This document shows positions 5,221 through 62,324 of a stretch of 64,000 bases of DNA, in pieces (position 1 is the stretch's first letter; each line of letters opens with the position of its first letter). The DNA is taken from the NCBI RefSeq assembly GCF_006345805.1, contig NC_043001.1, forward strand, positions 13,826,001 to 13,890,000. The letters are read 5' to 3'. The notes beneath the pieces were generated by a model that was not told where the DNA came from, searched no databases, and saw nothing but the letters and a program-made list of their open reading frames with translations. Source of the DNA: Octopus sinensis. Its lineage: Eukaryota. A program made the position numbers and the translations under genes.

Positions 5221-5815
5221 TAAGGCGGTGAGCTGGCAGAAGCGTTAGCACACCGGGCGAAATGTTTAGCGGTATTTCGTCTGCCGTTACGTTCTGAGTT
5301 CAAATTCCGCCGAGGTCATCTTTGCCTCTCATCCTTTCGGGGTCGATAAATTAAGTACCAGTTACGCACTGGGGTCGATATATATATGGACGTAATCCGT
5401 TTGTCTGTCCTTGTTTGTCTCCACTGTGTTTGGCCCCTTGTGGGTAGTAAAGAAATAGGTATTTCGTCTGCTGTTACGTTCTAAGTTCAAATTCCACCGA
5501 GGTCGACTTTGCCTTTCATCCTTTCGGGGTCGATTGAAAAAGTACCAGTTACGCACTGGGGTCGATATAATCGACTTAAGCAGTTTGTCTGTCCTTGTTT
5601 GTCCTCGCTGTGTTTGGCCCCTTGTGGGTAGTAAAGAAATAGGTATTTCGGCTACCGTTACGTTCTGAGTTCAAATTCCGCCGCGGTCGACTTTGCCTTT
5701 CATCCTTTCGGGGTCAATAAATTAAGTACCAGTCACGCACTCGGGTCGATGTAATTGACTTGAGCCGGTTGTCTATCCTTGCTTGTCCCCTCTATGTTTA
5801 GCCCCTTGTGGGCAA
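5221..5815 (+). mobile_element. SINE family B, one head plus three tandem body units
   Basis: Body restarts at ggtatttcg directly after ...aaagaaata near 5458 and 5642. Confidence 0.9.
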
Positions 5816-10116: not shown

Positions 10117-10434
10117 TATCTGTAAATGTAATATGACAATTATTCGGTAGCCATGATAAAACTCCGAGTTTCGGATGCCGAGGCGGAAAACCACGCCGCT
10201 ATCTCTTCAGTTATCCGGCCGTCAGAAAAATACTATGAAAAATTACCAAGTATTTTTCCGATGGCCGGATAACTGAAGAGATGGTGGCGTGGTTTTCCAC
10301 CTCGGCATCCGAAACTCGGAATTATATCATAGCTACGGAATAGTTGTCACATATGACATTTACAGATAAATTCATCTATTTACATAATATCGAGGTCTCT
10401 TTCATTCTTTTGTTGTCTTACCATTTTATCAATA
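10117..10434 (+). mobile_element. Fold-back PLE derivative (inverted pLTR pair plus tail) with a hammerhead in each arm
   Basis: 10117-10234 is the reverse complement of 10249-10368; unpaired tail 10369-10434; starts at (TA)n. Confidence 0.75.
10155..10215 (-). ncRNA. Type I hammerhead ribozyme motif
   Basis: gataa-CTGAAGA-stem II-GAAAC-tcgga-GTT-ttatc; stem I gataa/ttatc pairs perfectly. Confidence 0.7.
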
Positions 10435-10620: not shown

Positions 10621-11050
10621 AACGTAAGGGGGATCAGCCATCTGAATGTGGCTAGGGACAGGGCGGGGTGGTGGGGGTGTTACTGATGCTTTTAGCCCCA
10701 GGCGATCATCAACGTCACCAGAAGGACTGACACCATATCAGTGTCCTTGTTTGCCTGTAAAGGGAGGTCATCCTCCCTCGAAGATACGGATACTACATAC
10801 GGACCGGTTTCGAGGTCATTGCCTCTTATCAACGTGTATCTTCGAGGGAGGATGACCTCCCTTTACAGGCAAACAAGGACACTGATATGGTGTCAGTCCT
10901 TCTGGTGACGTTGATGATCGCCTGGGGCTAAAAGCATCGGTAACACCCCCACCACCCCGCCCTGTCCCTAGCCACATTCAGATGGCTGATCCCCCTTACG
11001 TTGTCGAGCAGTTACTGTTTATATCTCGTTCAGAGATTTATTATTGTTTT
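10621..11050. mobile_element. Young fold-back PLE derivative: 167-bp arms, 48-bp loop containing a hammerhead, 48-bp tail, inside (TA)n
   Basis: 10621-10787 vs 10836-11002 differ by one mismatch by eye; (TA)n on both sides. Confidence 0.8.
10799..10835 (-). ncRNA. Minimal type I hammerhead motif, U3-A8 core variant
   Basis: acg-TTGATAA-gagg caatga cctc-GAAAC-cg-GTC-cgt. Confidence 0.7.
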
Positions 11051-21826: not shown

Positions 21827-22471
21827 ATTATATCCGGTCCCTATCGTAGGATATGAAGATGGGATGAAGAAGAAAAAGGAAAGGAGAATAGAAAGGAAAG
21901 AAGAAAGAAAGAAAGCACGACAGAAAGAGATAAAGATAACGAAAAAGTAGAAGGGGAGGAGGAAGAAGGAGGAGGAGAAATAAAGGGTGTGATGGAAGGT
22001 GGGTGTTAGAATGGTGGAAGAATTAAATGGGGAAAATATTTCAATTGAGTAACGAATGAGTATATGGATAAGCTTGGAACCAGTGACGAAAGAAACAGCG
22101 ATTACATTTAAATGTCGAGATAGACAAATGAATAAATGATAAACGATTATAGTTAGATGACAATTAAGATGAACAGAAGTAAAAAGCAAAAGCGACATGA
22201 AGAGGAGAGTGTGCTGATTTAGAGGAATGGTCAATTATCCAAAGGTACGTTGGAGGCAATTAAAGAAAATACAATTTTAAAAAACATCAGAGAAGTTAAA
22301 ACAATACAAATTAACCAGCTGCTATGGTTTTCCTATTGAAGTCTTTTACGTTCTGCTTTGAAACGTATCACAAATTGTTACCATTCTACAGAAAACTAAA
22401 ACCGTAGGCGGCGAACTAGCAATGTCGCAGAAAAATAGAACAAATGCTTTCTATTTTTCTAAATCTTCATC

Positions 22472-22872
22472 AGACACCTACCATACTCTGAGCGCCTTGT
22501 TTCCCTGGGCATGGATTCACTGAAGCTCCAGCGTCTGTCGATGGACTTTGTAAACACCCACAAAGTTATCAACCACCTCACCAACAACAACACTGAACAC
22601 CTTTTTGATCTCCATGTGTCCAACACACGTGGACATGCCTACAAAGTCAGAAAACAACACAGCTCCCATGACTTTCGGAAACATTTTTTCACGCTCAGAG
22701 TTGCTGAAGCATGGAATAAACTGCCTGCGTCAGTTGTTGACTGCCATGACACTGCATCCTTTAAGGCACTCATGCTTTCCGAAATCCGCCGAAACTACAC
22801 CTGATTATACATACACTTTAGATGAGTTGTAGTGCACCTGTACACAATGTTTTTATTATTATTATTGTTATT
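22472..22872 (+). mobile_element. CR1-type LINE, 5'-truncated 3' end of ORF2 plus (TTA)n tail
   Basis: Translation YSERLVSLGMDSLKLQRL...NTRGHAYKV...FRKHFFTLRVAEAWNKLP matches the typical CR1/L2 ORF2 C-terminus. Confidence 0.9.
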
Positions 22873-33821: not shown

Positions 33822-33968
33822 AAAAGCAATAAAGATTCAAGTTAATTTAAATGAATTTACTTGAATATGGTACCTAACTTAGATGCACCAAAAAAAACTA
33901 TACGGTTTTAACAATACAGTAATGTGGGGTGATTATAAGCGAGAAAGAAGCAACAAGAATGGATAGGT

Positions 33969-34059
33969 TTTTAGTACAATCGTTTCATACAAGGACAGGC
34001 TTTATTAAAAGTTGCAAAGATTGCAGCATATAAACGTGTCCCGTACTCATCAGCTAAAA
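33969..34059 (-). ncRNA. Type I hammerhead ribozyme in the sense pLTR
   Basis: ttttag-CTGATGA-gtacgggaca...tgtccttgtat-GAAAC-gatt-GTA-ctaaaa. Confidence 0.8.
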
Positions 34060-34210
34060 TACATGTGAGTTCTCTAGACATCCTAGTGGTTGAGGCTATA
34101 CTCATGAAGTAATGTAGATAATTCAGTAACATAAACAGATTTCCAAAGTTCATTAAAGTTCTTTAAAGATGATGTACAGTCTTATCACAGAATTTTAAAA
34201 AAGTTATAAT

Positions 34211-35526: not shown

Positions 35527-36429
35527 TCATTTAAAATATTTTAAAGTCTTCAATTTAGCGTGGACACAAACTTGACCTAGTTCGATATGGTTATTCAATA
35601 AGTTTCTATGTTTTCTATGCTTTAGAATTTCATACGTCTCCATGGAGCATAGTTGGCAACCAACCCTGCTATTTTTATACGGAATTGCTCTCCTAACTAT
35701 TTCCCAATTAAGGTTATAATTATTATTATTATTTTTGAGTTCCCAGATTTTGTTTGAAAGTGTGGTGGTACCAGCTTTATGACGTAATTTAAAAGACGAG
35801 ATGTGATTTCTAACTCTGGCTAGAAAATTAATTGTACATCCAATGTAAAAATATTTGTTATTCTCCGTGGATATGGTACATTTATAGATTACATTATTTT
35901 CCCCGCATAGACCAGGTGCCGGGCATTTTGATTTTATTCTACACTTACACACAGGAGGAACAACTTCAGGTTTTGGATTATTCTTGGGTAGATGTCTTAG
36001 GTTCCTATTATTTTGATTATCATGAGTATAATTGTCCTTATTGTTATTAATATTTCTATAGTTGGTGCTGATATCTAAAGTATTGCTATTATTTATTGAT
36101 CCTTCTGTTTCATGTTTTAGGTCTAAAGTCCTACCGTGATTTCTTATATTATTGGTAATGTTACTATTATTATTAGTCTTTTTATCCGACTGTATATTGT
36201 TGTTATAGATATCACTGATATTTTCATTCTCCTTATTTTCTCCATTAGCCTTATTTCTATTATTTCTATTATTAACATTATTACTTCTATTAATATCGGT
36301 ATTGTTATTATTACTATTAATGTTAATGTTATTAGTCATTCTGTGGTTACTAATTTCACCCATGTTTTGATAGTTACTATTGCTGTTTTTATTGTTGGTA
36401 GTATTATTATAATTGCTATTGGTATTCAT
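35527..36429 (-). CDS. PLE GIY-YIG endonuclease domain preceded by a ~150-aa Asn-rich linker
   Basis: CKCRIKSKCPAPGLC...VIYKC...YIGCT..F..R..NH.SSF...T.LSNKIW.LK...W.I...A.PY...CQLC..E...I, the Cys-rich GIY-YIG signature of Penelope-like (Naiad/Neptune-type) elements; 300 codons without a stop. Confidence 0.9.
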   Translation of the reverse strand: MNTNSNYNNTTNNKNSNSNYQNMGEISNHRMTNNININSNNNNTDINRSNNVNNRNNRNKANGENKENENISDIYNNNIQSDKKTNNNSNITNNIRNHGRTLDLKHETEGSINNSNTLDISTNYRNINNNKDNYTHDNQNNRNLRHLPKNNPKPEVVPPVCKCRIKSKCPAPGLCGENNVIYKCTISTENNKYFYIGCTINFLARVRNHISSFKLRHKAGTTTLSNKIWELKNNNNNYNLNWEIVRRAIPYKNSRVGCQLCSMETYEILKHRKHRNLLNNHIELGQVCVHAKLKTLKYFK

Positions 36430-36564
36430 GCTGATATTATTATTTTTATTTCTATCTTTCCTGAACTTTAATGAACTTTGGAAATCTGTTTATGTTACTG
36501 AATTATCTACATTACTTCATGAGTATAGCCTCAACCACTAGGATGTCTAGAGAACTCACATGTA

Positions 36565-36655
36565 TTTTAGCTGATGAGTACGGGACACGTTTATATGCTG
36601 CAATTTTTGCAACTTTTAATAAAGCCTGTCCTTGTATGAAACGATTGTACTAAAA
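36565..36655 (+). ncRNA. Type I hammerhead ribozyme in the inverted pLTR
   Basis: CTGATGA at 36571-36577, GAAAC at 36638-36642, GTA at 36647-36649, stem I ttttag/ctaaaa. Confidence 0.8.
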
Positions 36656-37249
36656 ACCTATCCATTCTTGTTGCTTCTTTCTCGCTTATATATATATATA
36701 TATATATATACATTCTTTTATATCCACTTCCACCACTACGTTATAGAAGTTAGAAAATTATTTATGAATATCACAATGGTTTTCTACCTCTTGTATCCAT
36801 CACCTGATTTTCAATTCATATTGTAATTTTTTAATACCTAAAATAGTTAACATTAAAATATAGAAATTCTTATGAATTTACCACAGCAAGTATTTTCTTT
36901 CTCGGTTCTGTAACATTAACAAATATTCTTATTTTTTTAGTCCTTCCTCTTAGACTTATTTCACACAAACGAATGTAATCATTTTTAACTAATAATAAAT
37001 CTTTTCCCCCATTATATTCACCTAAAGATTACTCCCTCACAACCCTAATTTTTTTTGTCATTTGAATTTCAAGTAACTTATATAAAATTATACTAACTAC
37101 TTGTATTTCTCATTCAAGGAATTTTTTTCAACAATTTCTTTTTAATATACACCATAATTTATTGTCGTTATTTTCATTGTATACCACTCATAACTGTCAA
37201 ATCATATCTAAATTTAAATACAGCTATGCTGTCCCATTGGACGCTTATG

Positions 37250-40303: not shown

Positions 40304-41428
40304 TGATGTTACTTTGCTTCTCTCACTTTTTAATCGCTTTACTTATGAAATATAACCGAATACAAAAGATCGAATTTTCTTTAACGAAATGTTTATCACG
40401 ATATCATAAATTTATGTAATAAAATATAATAGTATTTCTAACTCCTCGTCCACTTATTATCAATGACGTTCTCAGCTAACATCTATGGTTCGAACTGATA
40501 TGTTTTGGAGAACTTATGGGGTGTGGAGTATTATGTGTAGTTTCCAGAAATCCCTAGCTTAGCAGTGGCACCTAGATATCATGCCTATTTCTTTACTACC
40601 CACAAGGGGCTAAACACAGAGGGCACAAACAAGGACAGACAAACGGATTAAGTCGATTACATCGACCCCAGTGCGTAACTGGTACTTAATTTATCGACCC
40701 CGAAAGAATGAAAGGCAAAGTCGACCTCGGCGGAATTTGAACTCAGAACGTCACGGCAGACGAAATACCACTAAGCATACCACTAATAATGCAGCGAGCT
40801 GGCGGAATCGTTAGCACGCTGGATGAAATGCTTCGTGGTATTTCGCCCGTTGCTCCGATCTGAGTTCAAATTCCGCTTTGCCTTTCATTCTTTTGACTTT
40901 GCCTTATATTCTTTCCGGGTCGACTAAATAAAGTACCATTTGCGCACCCGGCGTAATCTCTTACTCCAAATTTGAGACCTTGAGCTTCCAGTAAAAAGGT
41001 TATTGTTATTAATAATAATAATAATAATAATAATAAGGCGAGTTAGCAGAATCGTTAGCACGCCGCGCGAAATGCTTAGCTGTATGTCGTCTATCTTTAA
41101 GTTCTGAGTTCAAATTTCGCCGAGGTCGACTTTGCCTGTCCTACTTTCGGGCTCGATTAAATAAGTAGCAGTTACACACTGGGGTCGATGTAATCAACTT
41201 AATCCGTTTGCCTGTCCTTGTTTGTCTTCTCTATGTTTAGTCCCTTGTGGGTAATAAAGAAACAGGTATTTCTTCTGTCGTTACGTTCTGAGTTCAAATT
41301 TCGCCGAGGTCGACTTTGCCTTTCATCCTTTCGGGATCGATTAAATAAGTGCAAGTTTAACACTTGGGTCGATATAATCCACTCACTCACTCCCCCATAA
41401 AGGCGGCCCTTGCGGCAAAATTTGAAAC

Positions 41429-42182: not shown

Positions 42183-42786
42183 ACCTATTTCTTTACTACC
42201 CACATGGGGCTAAACACAGAGGGGGCAAACAAGGACAGACAAACGGATTAAGTCGATTACATCGACCCCAGTGCGTAACTCGTACTTATTTAATCGGCCC
42301 CGGAAGGATGAAAGGCAAAGTCGACCTCGGCGGAATTTGAACTCAGAACGTAACGGCAGACGAAGTACCTATTTCTTTACTACCCACAAAGCGCTAAACA
42401 CAGAGAGGACAAACAAGTACAGACAAAGGTATTAAGTCTATTATATCAACCCCAGTGCGTAACTGGTACTAAATTTATCGACCCAAAAAGGATGAAAGGC
42501 AAAGTCGACCTCGGAGGAATTTGAACTCAGAACGTAACGGCAGACAAAATACCTATTTCTTTACTACCCACAAAGGGCTAAACAGAGAGAGGACAAACAA
42601 GGACAAACAAACGGATTAAGTCGGTTATATCGACACCAGTGCGTAACTGGTCCTTATTTAATCGACCCCGAAAGGATGAAAGGCAAAGTCGACCTCGGCG
42701 GAATTTGAACTCAGAACGTAGCGGCAGACGAAATACGGCTACGCATTTCGCCCGGCGTGCTAACGTTTCTGCCAGCTCGCCGCCTT
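42183..42786 (-). mobile_element. SINE family B trimer with TSD-like flanks (tcgag.aacaatacc)
   Basis: Three tandem body units and one head. Confidence 0.9.
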
Positions 42787-47605: not shown

Positions 47606-47981
47606 TATTTATCAAAAGAAAAACATGATGCAAAAGATTTAGCGGTACATATGTTTCTGGATTTTATTAGACGGTTAATATCAATGCATAATTGATGTAA
47701 TATGTATGTCAATAACCTTCTTCAGCGGCACACAATTACAATAATTATTATAATGTAACACATGTCCTTGAAGTAGTGATTGTGCGCGGCTGAAGAAGGC
47801 TATTGACATACATATTACATCAATTATGCATTGATATAAACCGTCTAATAAAAGCCAGAAACATATGTACCGCTAAATCCTTTGCATCATGTTCATCTTT
47901 TGATAAATATACTCTATCACCTACACCACTAACTGGCATATACATGTGCTTACAATTATCAAGTATTCACCCTGAATTTTT

Positions 47982-48018: not shown

Positions 48019-50519
48019 ATTTATTCGTAGAAATGCGTTCACATATGTGTGTGGATGTGACGCACTATGTGTTTATAACCTACTCGATTAATGAGTACAA
48101 AGGATTCTGGGACACCGATGTTTAGACATCCTTTGTCTATGAACACAGTCGTTTTAAATAAGAAGCTGTTCTTTTGTGAGGAGTACGACAGCGATTGGCA
48201 TATTTGCGTTCGAATATGCCAAAACGTATTAAAAATAATAAGCAGGCCATAGTTTCAAAAATCTTTGTACATTCTACATATAACGATATACCATAGGTTT
48301 TAGATATCAGCACAGATCAGCAAGCGGTATACTTGCTGCATGTATAATATAAACCAAACCACCGCTTCTTGTTGGTCTGGGTACTTGTGACTGACGGGAC
48401 ACGACATGTCGAAACACCGGTGTCCAAGAATACCTTGTCCTGATGAATTGAGTTGGTTGTGAACACATAATCGTCGCAAAGGAGAAATTGTTCTGCTATG
48501 ATGAAGTCTACAGCAATTTTCACACACACACACACAACACACACACACACACACACACACGTACGTTGATAAGGCGGCGAGCTGGCGGAAACGTCAGCGC
48601 ACCGGGTGAAATGCTTAGTGATGTTTCATCTGCCGTTACGTTCTGAGTTCAAATTCCGCCGAGGTCGACTTTGCCTTTCATCCTTTCGGGGTTGATAAAT
48701 AAAGTACCCGTTACGCACTGGGGTCGATGTAATCGACTTAATCCGTGTGTCTGTCCTTGTTTGTCCCATCTGTGTTTAACCCATCGTGGGTAGTAAAGAA
48801 ATAGGTATTTCGTCTACCGTTACGTTCTGAGTTGAAATTCCATCGAGGTCAACGTTGCCTTTCATCCTTTCGGGGTTGATAAATAAAGTACCAGTTACGC
48901 ACTGGAGTCGATGTAATCGACTCAATCCCATTGTCTGTCCTTGTTTGTCCCTTCTGTGTTTAGCCCCTCGTGGGTAATAAAGAAATATATACAGACAAAT
49001 ATATGTTGATATAAGGCTACTTTCATTAGAAATATTATAGACATAATTTGAAAATAATTATTGATGTTTATTGTCATTTGAACTCAGAATGCTGGGATCT
49101 ACAACGTGATACCATGCAGCCTTTACTTGAAATGTCACCACATGTACGATTATGTTTTCGAGAGTGTGTCATGATTAAATGCAAAATCATCACACTGGGA
49201 TTAAGACTTGCAAATATGTTAAACCTCTTCTTTGACTTTCTTGGATCTTCGTCTCTTTCATTGCGCTTAAGTTATAAATGGGTGACGAAAAGAATGGGAT
49301 AACAGATGATCATTTCACGTTTACTCTATTCACTGCTAAAATTTATTTACCAATCAAATATAGGTTTGAATGGTTTTATTGATAAATCAGCTGTTACAGT
49401 GCTTCTTCACAAAGCATGTTAATAAAAGGGTTTGATGTTATATCGATCGAATGCAAAGGAATAATCCAAATGTAAACATGATGAACGAGAAGTTGAAATC
49501 GGAACCTACATTATTAAGAAAAGTGTTGATATAGTTCAAATCACCTTTACTGACCTCTAACTTCTTACATTCATAATCCTCCTTTCTTTTCTCTCTCATC
49601 CATTGTACTCTTCTGTCAATTCTCACCTCGTCCATATTTCCTATTCGATTTCTTCCTTATTCAATGGGCAACCAAACAGAAACAGAAACAGAAACACATC
49701 TGAATAGACTCATAAAGTATGCATACATCCACATACGTAATTACATACGCATCCGCGCATATCTGTATAACTACATATGTTATTGCCTTGTAATATCTCT
49801 TCAATCAGGGAGCCCAGCCACACAACTTTATATGCTAAGACATCATAAAATTGATAAATATTTTTCAATATGTACAGCTCCAAATACAATATGTGCAACA
49901 ATCGGAAGTTAATATCCTAACTTGTCCTGTTTGGGACAGGGTTTCAAATCCTGTTACAACCTTATAGTGATATCGCTCTTTTACTCTTTTACTTGTTTCA
50001 GTCATTTGACTGTGGCCACGCTGCAGCACCGCCTTTAGTCGAGAAAATCGACCCCCAGGACTTATTCTTTGTAAGCCTAGTACTTATTATATCGGTCTTT
50101 TGCCGAACCGCTAAGTTACGGGGACGTAAACACACCAGCATAGGTTGTCAAGCGATGTTGAGGGGACAAACACTGACACACAAACATATACATGCACATA
50201 CATATATATATACATATATACGACGGGCTTTTTTCAGTTTCCGTCTACCGAATCCACTCACAAGGCTTTAGTCGGCCCGAGACTATAGTAAAATACATTT
50301 GCCCAAGTTGCCACGGACTGAACCCGGAACCATGTGGTTCGTAAGCAAGCTACTTACCACACACCCACTCCTCAGAGTTACTTTTATGTGTTGCCGGTCG
50401 GTGGGATTGTGGTCCTCTAAAATTTTCTTTTTAAGGTTTTTAATATTTGTAAAGTCATATTGTAGCCATTATTATGACCGGTTGCAACCCGGACCATAGC
50501 AACAAAGTCTACCCGCCAC

Positions 50520-61020: not shown

Positions 61021-61570
61021 TCTATAAACTGTTAATAGTTATTGCCAAGCTAATATGGCAGTCCAGAAATATAGGACGAATGCTGCCGTCGATTAGCTCC
61101 AAGAGGCCATTGCCTCTAGCTAGATATGTGACACACGAACCTGTGTCCATTATAACCTTCGAACAGGGGAGGTCAGTAGCTTCCCCTTCCTGGTCAGGCA
61201 CCTGCAGACTAGTTTCAGGGTATTTGCCCTTTATCAATGCAGAGCAGCCGAACCCAACAGGCGTCGCTACTAACCGTCTGTTCGAAATATTATGTACCTA
61301 AATTCCACGGAATACCTGGTTTTCAAAAAAAGAAACATTTATATATCTAAGCTTCTCTAAAGGAGACTACTGGATATTAATAGTTATCTCCAATCTAATA
61401 TGGCGGTCCAGAAATATAGGACGAATGCTGCCGTTGATTAGCTCCAAGAGGCCATCGCCTCTAGCTCGCTATGTGACACACGAACCTGTGTCCATTATAG
61501 CTTTCGAACAAGGGAGGTCAGCCATCCTTTACAGAGAATTAGAAATATTAATATTTCTATTCTATAAACT
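61021..61570 (-). mobile_element. Partial tandem pLTR-type repeat with hammerhead
   Basis: 61032-61156 repeated at 61377-61521; hammerhead motif between the copies. Confidence 0.65.
61202..61242 (-). ncRNA. Minimal type I hammerhead motif, U3-A8 core variant
   Basis: ctgca-TTGATAA-aggg caaata ccct-GAAAC-ta-GTC-tgcag. Confidence 0.75.
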
Positions 61571-61751: not shown

Positions 61752-62324
61752 TTGGGTCGTCCGGAAAGTTCGTGTCGATTTCTATAGGAAGGAAAAAGGT
61801 CAATAAATACTTGCCATTACCCAAGTTATACCAGGTGCTCATGAACGACGGATTTTGATAGGTTGAGGCTTTCTGCCAATTCTCGGGTTGTGCAATGTGG
61901 GTTACTCGCAAATAATGACTTGATTTGGTCTTCATCTGTAGTGGATGGTCTGCCTGATCGGTCTTTATCAATAAGGCTACAATCTCCAGCTCGGAACCTT
62001 GCGAACCACTTCCGTACAGTTCTTTCGGATAAAGAAACATCACCGTAAACTGCGCATATTTCTTTGGTTGCTTGTGAGGCATTTTTCCCTTTATGGAAAA
62101 AGAAAAGCATCAAGTGCCGAAAATGACTTTCTTATCTTCCATTTTAAAGGGTTACAGAATTAACACAGGTTATAGGAACAGAAACCTTCTTCCACGAAAA
62201 GATAGCTTAACCTGTGCTCTAAATGGAGGTGCAGTCAAATCCTATTTTATGGACTAAAACATTTTCTAAAAGAAGTCGAAAGGTAAGCTACTATAAATCG
62301 GCACGAACTTTCCGGACAACCCAA
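61752..62324 (-). mobile_element. Internally deleted mariner retaining the N-terminal HTH domains
   Basis: Same TIRs and 5' region as 56872-57437; KGKNASQATKEICAVYG...TVRKWFARFRAGD...RSGRPS...TTRELAESL. Confidence 0.95.

What the first reader, a model, noticed from the sequence alone, without database searches (positions are those of the whole stretch)
10799..10835. Compensatory U3-A8 hammerhead core in two unrelated elements (also 61202-61242)
Seen: both motifs read TTGATAA instead of CTGATGA, with different but perfectly paired stems I and II and palindromic stem III (accggt, actagt). Established: positions 3 and 8 form a Watson-Crick pair in the active hammerhead fold, so C3U plus G8A restores pairing. 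Inference: the same double change in two sequence-unrelated families argues for selection on catalysis and a rare natural core variant that standard CUGANGA searches miss.
Basis: partly seen in the sequence, partly recalled or inferred. Interest (0 to 1): 0.8.

Follow-up and report, generated by a model that had tools for sequence, protein, structure and literature searches.

The report
U3-A8 hammerheads in 360-bp retrozyme repeats
Both motifs are real hammerhead-shaped RNA elements in two mobile 360-base repeat families, and their swapped core pair (U3-A8) is a published variant that is the commonest of the four core forms counted in this genome; one family also keeps about 20 dispersed copies with a mismatched core, likely a frozen halfway step back to the usual C-G pair.

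Summary
Confirmed, on the minus strand: both sites are type I hammerhead motifs with a U3-A8 core. Each lies in a ~360-bp non-coding repeat with tandem and inverted copies, like animal non-LTR retrozymes. U3-A8 is family-fixed, not decay: 64 of 68 matches in family B, none C3-G8. It is not rare here: of 7,724 pattern matches, 4,861 are U-A, 2,010 C-G, 467 C-A and 386 U-G. Nor is it new: natural U3-A8 cores are in PMC3088659 and, about 1,300 hits, in Schistosoma Penelope elements (PMC4209133); this scan also noted the variant on other DNA. Corrections: stem I of the 10799 copy has only 3 contiguous pairs, because an inversion junction cuts it (70 of 78 family variants have 6). The extra finding: lineage A holds 192 U3, 60 C3-G8 and 20 C3·A8 mismatch matches; the mismatch copies are an amplified subfamily that sits between the two on the tree, probably in the order U-A, C·A, C-G (AU p 0.016). 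Cleavage is untested.

The parts
10799..10835 (-). Type I hammerhead motif, family A, CAATGA-loop subfamily: U3 at 10832, A8 at 10827, stem II 10812-10825, GAAA 10808-10811, C17 at 10802 (predicted cut between 10802 and 10801); stem I shortened to 3 bp in this copy
10621..10832 (-). Family A repeat, unit positions 1-211, 97% identical to a full 360-bp unit; ends in a (TA)n tract
   Evidence: blastn against the natural unit of L012
10836..11050 (+). Inverted, 5'-truncated second copy of family A (unit 46-259, no ribozyme); makes a 167-bp inverted repeat around the hammerhead; ends in a (TA)n tract
61201..61243 (-). Type I hammerhead motif, family B: U3 at 61237, A8 at 61232, stem II 61217-61230 (A10.1-U11.1, loop CAAATA), C17 at 61207; stem I 5 bp plus U·G
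61032..61522 (-). Family B repeat, partial tandem of about 1.4 units (unit 61-361, then 1-206), 82-86% identical to the 361-bp unit of L076

Best explanation
Both sites are type I hammerhead motifs with a family-fixed U3-A8 core inside two ~360-bp non-coding dispersed and tandem repeats, which are likely non-LTR retrozymes that likely borrow a Penelope-like element's enzymes to spread. Shown: motif anatomy, unit length, tandem and inverted copies, (TA)n ends, 3-8 covariation. Inferred mechanism: a transcript through a tandem array carries two hammerheads; their short palindromic helix III pairs between copies to make a double hammerhead; U3-A8 replaces C3-G8 as the pair that holds nucleotide 8 in the active site; cutting after C17 releases a 360-nt unit that can close to a self-paired circle and be reverse-transcribed into AT-rich DNA. 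Selection keeps 3 and 8 paired over the long run but is loose enough that one source element with a C3·A8 mismatch spread before A8 changed to G. The two window copies are single, truncated insertions and are probably not themselves active; the 10799 copy has a broken stem I inside a long hairpin.
For: Anatomy: (6-bp stem I in 70 of 78 A and 17 of 21 B distinct 71-mers; palindromic helix III in 74 of 78 and 21 of 21). Units of 360-361 bp between same-strand cores. Of 152 family-A cores held, 38 have a tandem and 58 an inverted neighbour. Circular folds of two natural units: -115 against shuffles -90±5 and -131 against -86±5 kcal/mol. Genome-wide counts U-A 4,861 (control 265), C-G 2,010 (350), C-A 467 (136), U-G 386 (225). 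Papers: type I hammerheads in 350-390-bp tandem repeats give circular RNAs in mussel (PMC7229834); dimer model and U3-A8 in Penelope elements (PMC4209133); natural U3-A8 and a cited in vitro activity of covaried cores (PMC3088659); inverted 5'-truncated copies and (TA)n targets are Penelope traits (PMC8557442).
Against: No cleavage, strand or circle was shown here. [quoted passage not shown] The C3·A8 subfamily (22 copies, 17 loci) shows spread without a Watson-Crick 3-8 pair, and hammerhead mutants did not impair Penelope insertion in vitro (PMC11167929). The minimum-energy folds of single copies do not give the hammerhead core. No reverse transcriptase partner sharing these units was found in the 120-140 loci screened. 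Copy counts are not independent events: the odds ratio is driven by a few large families.
Confidence: 0.8

Rival explanations
1. The units are pLTR remnants of autonomous Penelope-like elements, and the hammerhead works (if at all) in processing the full-length element's RNA.
For: Penelope hammerheads lie in pLTRs and mostly survive as truncated singles (PMC4209133). Inverted 5'-truncated copies are common here. A GIY-YIG fragment lies at window 35527-35994 (Pfam E 0.0012, below cut-off).
Against: Head-to-tail units are exactly 360-361 bp with no coding sequence between cores, up to seven in a row at about 360-bp spacing (C1:28192959-28195156). The GIY-YIG query hit only 1 of 140 loci, a family-C locus. 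The stems match the 'canonical' retrozyme type (6 and 4 bp), not the minimal type.
Confidence: 0.12
2. Cleavage is no longer needed: the core is a relic, and U3-A8 is only inherited from a few successful source elements.
For: The amplified C3·A8 subfamily; insertion without cleavage in vitro (PMC11167929); U-A not rescued in one construct (PMC9901934); C-to-T and G-to-A are the commonest private changes in these copies (69 against 29 for the reverse).
Against: Of the families seen (A, A's C-G branch, B, C, D, F, G) all but one subfamily keep a Watson-Crick 3-8 pair although the patterns did not require it; the mismatch lineage gave rise to the re-paired C-G subfamilies; stems I-III vary between families but stay paired. 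No repeated U·G family among the first 100 of 386 U·G matches.
Confidence: 0.07
3. The two motifs are decayed C3-G8 copies or chance matches.
For: Both changes are transitions, the commonest kind of decay.
Against: Family B: 64 of 68 U-A, 0 C-G. No C3 copy with the CAATGA loop among all 80 C3 matches of lineage A; 20 of 20 exact matches to the window's subfamily have A8. Controls 0.
Confidence: 0.01

Closest known systems
U3-A8 hammerheads of Schistosoma mansoni Penelope-like (Cercyon) elements, Cervera and De la Peña 2014 (PMC4209133; parts 1-2 of the main text read, supplement file 2 searched)
   Same: Same U3-A8 core covariation, type I topology, palindromic short helix III, about 1,300 mostly single genomic hits, some opposite-strand pairs.
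   Different: Those are minimal hammerheads with 7-8-bp helix II and no real helix III. Here helix I has 6 bp, helix II 4 bp and helix III a 4-nt palindromic insert, in 360-bp tandem units, and U3-A8 outnumbers C3-G8 under the pattern used.
Animal non-LTR retrozymes, Cervera and De la Peña 2020 (PMC7229834; one section and passages read); Li et al. bioRxiv 10.64898/2026.07.22.740005 (part 1 read)
   Same: Non-coding tandem repeats of about 300-390 bp with one type I hammerhead per unit, highly self-paired units, link to Penelope elements.
   Different: Circular RNA and cleavage are not shown here; the passages searched mention no U3-A8 core and no cephalopod; the supplement of PMC7229834 could not be read.
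Natural U3-A8 core variants, Perreault et al. 2011 (PMC3088659; passages read)
   Same: Same covariation, reported in several natural hammerheads.
   Different: There a rare variant among many; here thousands of genomic matches and a recorded mismatch intermediate.

Membership tests
Type I hammerhead ribozyme | Core boxes YUGANRA and GAAA, with U16.1-H17 cleavage site | tested here: met
   (core is the U3-A8 variant; GUC site)
Type I hammerhead ribozyme | Helices I, II, III closing a three-way junction, helix I open | tested here: met
   met for the families and for copy B, weak for window copy A (3 bp)
Type I hammerhead ribozyme | Watson-Crick pair between positions 3 and 8 | tested here: met
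   U-A in both copies; genome-wide covariation; not met in the C3·A8 subfamily
Type I hammerhead ribozyme | Match to an Rfam hammerhead model | tested here: not met
   No hammerhead hit in the window at E<=1 or in 4 loci at E<=10, two of them with C3-G8 cores; the models miss this short-helix-III class whatever the core
Type I hammerhead ribozyme | Self-cleavage after position 17 | not testable with these tools
   Only assembled contigs were served
Non-LTR retrozyme | Non-coding unit of 150-400 bp with one type I hammerhead, in tandem copies | tested here: met
Non-LTR retrozyme | Highly self-paired unit | tested here: met
   (2 units, about 61% paired, 5 and 9 SD below 60 shuffles)
Non-LTR retrozyme | Accumulates as circular RNA | tested here: inconclusive
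   Joints going back 358-359 nt in one run guessed to be RNA fit circles and genomic tandems alike
Autonomous Penelope-like element | RT and GIY-YIG ORF between pLTRs that carry the hammerhead | tested here: inconclusive
   No such ORF in 140 loci of 1.4-3 kb; no genome-wide search for a full-length partner

The most novel reading that the evidence does not exclude
Family A is a fossil record of two-step compensatory evolution inside a ribozyme active site: U3-A8 (oldest) changed to a C3·A8 mismatch that was itself copied to at least 17 loci, and then to canonical C3-G8 (youngest). The mismatch element would have spread by cleavage in trans from intact relatives, by slow residual cleavage, or by A-to-I editing of A8 to give a C-I pair; changes along this branch are mostly A-to-G and T-to-C (10 against 2), the reverse of the private changes of copies (29 against 69). 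The three natural subfamilies give a ready-made test of whether retrozymes need to cut themselves.
Probability: 0.6. Interest if true: 0.62.

Novelty: new member of a known kind. Interest (0 to 1): 0.38.

Why it matters
Two things matter more. First, under one pattern U3-A8 makes up about two thirds of hammerhead-like matches in a 2.7-Gb animal genome, so a CUGANGA census would undercount such genomes severely. Second, whether hammerheads of Penelope-linked elements must cleave for the element to spread is open (PMC11167929, PMC8557442); three natural subfamilies 88-96% identical with U-A, C·A and C-G cores make that directly testable.

Tried and rejected
Rfam scans found no hammerhead in the window or in four control loci; not informative about the core. 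No RNA holder was listed on record; contigs of runs guessed to be RNA cover the unit but show no strand, ends or level. Editing at A8: two contigs with G at that place carried other differences (one matches the genomic CGACCA subfamily, one also stands in a second, larger run), so no evidence for or against editing. The B/C tree dropped 13 of 69 rows (10 C-G, 2 U-A, 1 C·A) with a filter that favoured B-like rows, and has long uneven tips; I use it only to say that B and C are distant relatives. The A-versus-B forced alignment (50%) is near noise (42-47% to an unrelated unit). The paper on tolerated 3-8 exchanges (PMC1986816) and Martick and Scott 2006 (PMC4447102) are not held, so I saw no rates for U3-A8 or C3·A8. 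The general pattern needs a 4-nt helix III insert starting with C and misses family F (6-nt insert) and minimal hammerheads, so the U-A share holds for that pattern only. A single segmental duplication as source of the C·A copies was rejected: flanks differ.

Full report
Observation. The window is G000:C5:13826001-13890000 of a 2.72-Gb assembly. From its size and repeats it may be an octopus; that is recalled, not tested. Both motifs read on the minus strand. Site A has U3 at 10832, A8 at 10827 and C17 at 10802; site B has U3 at 61237, A8 at 61232 and C17 at 61207. Stem II has 4 pairs and helix III is a palindrome in both. Stem I has 5 pairs plus U·G in B but only 3 contiguous pairs in A, because an inverted copy of the same repeat joins just upstream and forms a 167-bp inverted repeat; 70 of 78 distinct family-A 71-mers have 6 pairs.

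The elements. DNA searches gave 806 and 1,495 first-look candidates, of which 40 each were scored. Same-strand cores lie 360-361 bp apart in both families. The window holds unit 1-211 plus an inverted unit 46-259 of family A, between (TA)n tracts, and about 1.4 units of family B. Of 152 family-A cores held, 38 have a tandem and 58 an inverted neighbour. One natural unit of each family folds as a circle far below 60 shuffles. No reverse transcriptase ORF linked to the units was seen in 140 loci, and a GIY-YIG fragment from the window hit one family-C locus only. This fits non-LTR retrozymes as described for mussel (PMC7229834, section read) and the dimer model of PMC4209133.

Is U3-A8 fixed? 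Yes. Family B, with positions 3, 7 and 8 free: 68 matches, 64 U-A, 2 C·A, 1 U·G, 1 U·U, 0 C-G, control 0 (counted from the full list). The window's A subfamily: 20 of 20 matches have A8, and none of the 80 C3 matches of lineage A has its CAATGA loop. Genome-wide, one general pattern gave 7,724 matches (reversed control 976): U-A 4,861 (265), C-G 2,010 (350), C·A 467 (136), U·G 386 (225). The odds ratio is 54 raw and 3.0 in the controls; U-A is 63% raw and 68% net. These are copies, not independent events, and the pattern misses hammerheads with another helix III.

Are the families unrelated? Nearly. Outside the ribozyme A and B do not align by blastn; a profile of B and C scores 18 of 22 A copies above all 66 shuffles, best E 0.015, a faint sign of deep kinship. 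A's nearest relative found is family F (934 matches to one motif; 64-69% identity over 200-260 nt), whose 7 readable cores are 6 C-G and 1 G-G. B clusters with the C3-G8 family C (tree after 13 of 69 rows were dropped). So the pair changed state at least twice between these four families, either as two gains of U-A or as returns from an ancestral U-A; the data do not choose. Families D (7 of 7 held U-A) and E (1 U-A, 1 C·A) cluster apart.

The intermediate. Lineage A has 272 exact matches: 192 with U3 (99 of the 100 listed are U-A, 1 U·G) and 80 with C3, of which 60 are C-G and 20 are C·A (full list). The C·A copies are separate insertions with different flanks at 17 loci, 8 of 22 in C·A-only tandems, about 2% apart. 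I fetched all 20 C·A, about 44 of 60 C-G and about 83 of 192 U-A matches. In a tree of 144 of 150 copies without positions 3 and 8, all C3 copies form one clade (ultrafast bootstrap 100), C·A copies branch first and C-G copies are nested (87). With 7 F copies as outgroup the root falls among the CAATGA U-A copies. On 53 rows and 254 columns the AU test rejects a root outside the U3 copies or next to C-G (p 0.016) and a tree with C-G sister to U3 (p 0.011), uncorrected for five constraints. Within-subfamily divergence agrees: 4.1, 3.2, 3.0 and 2.1% for U-A, 2.0% for C·A, 2.0, 1.6 and 1.1% for C-G. One result cuts the other way: in this direction the branch carries 10 A>G or T>C changes against 2 of the reverse, while private changes of copies run 29 against 69 (Fisher p 0.0005). 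Read backwards (C-G to C·A to U-A) the branch would match the neutral spectrum. The outgroup is distant and recombination was not tested. That C·A lies between the two paired states does not depend on the root.

Mechanism. Shown: anatomy, repeat structure, covariation, subfamily order on the tree. Inferred: cleavage as a double hammerhead from tandem transcripts, circle formation, copying by a Penelope-type enzyme. That 3 and 8 pair in the active fold is stated in PMC3884650 (passages). PMC3088659 reports natural U3-A8 and cites in vitro activity of covaried cores (passages); I could not read the cited paper. Against: PMC9901934 saw rescue only for the G-C swap in its construct (passages), and PMC11167929 found hammerhead mutants did not affect Penelope insertion in vitro (passages). 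The C·A subfamily could have spread by slow cleavage, by cleavage in trans from intact relatives, without cleavage, or by editing of A8 to inosine (heavy A-to-I editing in cephalopods is recalled, and the host is a guess). Contigs could not test this.

Novelty. U3-A8 is published for natural hammerheads (PMC3088659) and for Schistosoma Penelope elements, about 1,300 hits (PMC4209133; two such rows in its supplement). Earlier notes of this scan record the variant in phages and another repeat; I had the papers before that look-up. Seven literature searches (listings only) showed no paper on octopus hammerheads or on an amplified C3·A8 intermediate; the library lacks most subscription papers and two supplements were unreadable. 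Verdict: real and well supported, a new member of a known kind, with one side finding worth an experiment.

Noticed in passing
L125, L126, L127, L134-L136, L166, L201-L210 (G000, 17 loci): Amplified subfamily of family A with a C3·A8 mismatch core, placed between U3-A8 and C3-G8 subfamilies.
   Followed up: yes
L063, L069, L070, L074, L083, L089: Family D: AT-rich U3-A8 hammerhead family with a long stem II that starts with a U·U mismatch at 10.1-11.1; no flank similarity to A or B.
   Followed up: partly
L132, L133: Family E: another AT-rich family; of two copies held, one is U3-A8 and one C3·A8.
   Followed up: no
L231-L260: Family F: 934 matches to one motif, about 65% identical to family A, C3-G8 core with a 6-nt helix III insert; many inverted pairs.
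   Followed up: partly
L137, L138, L129: Older C3·A8 copies among families B and C; L137 branches at the base of the C group, so the B/C switch may also have passed through C·A (weak tree).
   Followed up: partly
window 35527-35994 (-), with a 237-bp inverted repeat at 33934-34170 / 36454-36690: GIY-YIG endonuclease fragment of Penelope type (Pfam PF01541, E 0.0012, below cut-off).
   Followed up: partly
G000:C1:28192959-28195156: Seven U3-A8 cores in tandem at about 360-bp spacing, a multimeric array of a B-related subfamily.
   Followed up: no
window, e.g. 2452-2651, 5227-5797, 41037-41420, 42186-42785, 48576-48959: A SINE-like repeat of about 200 bp with many copies on both strands, some in 184-bp tandems.
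   Followed up: no
window 10163-10318 and 47682-47835: Long hairpins that score against MIR4371 below the gathering score; probably small inverted-repeat elements.
   Followed up: no
window 61826-62131 (-) and 22463-22804 (+): Fragments that look like a mariner transposase N-terminus and a LINE reverse transcriptase C-terminus (by eye, recalled motifs).
   Followed up: no
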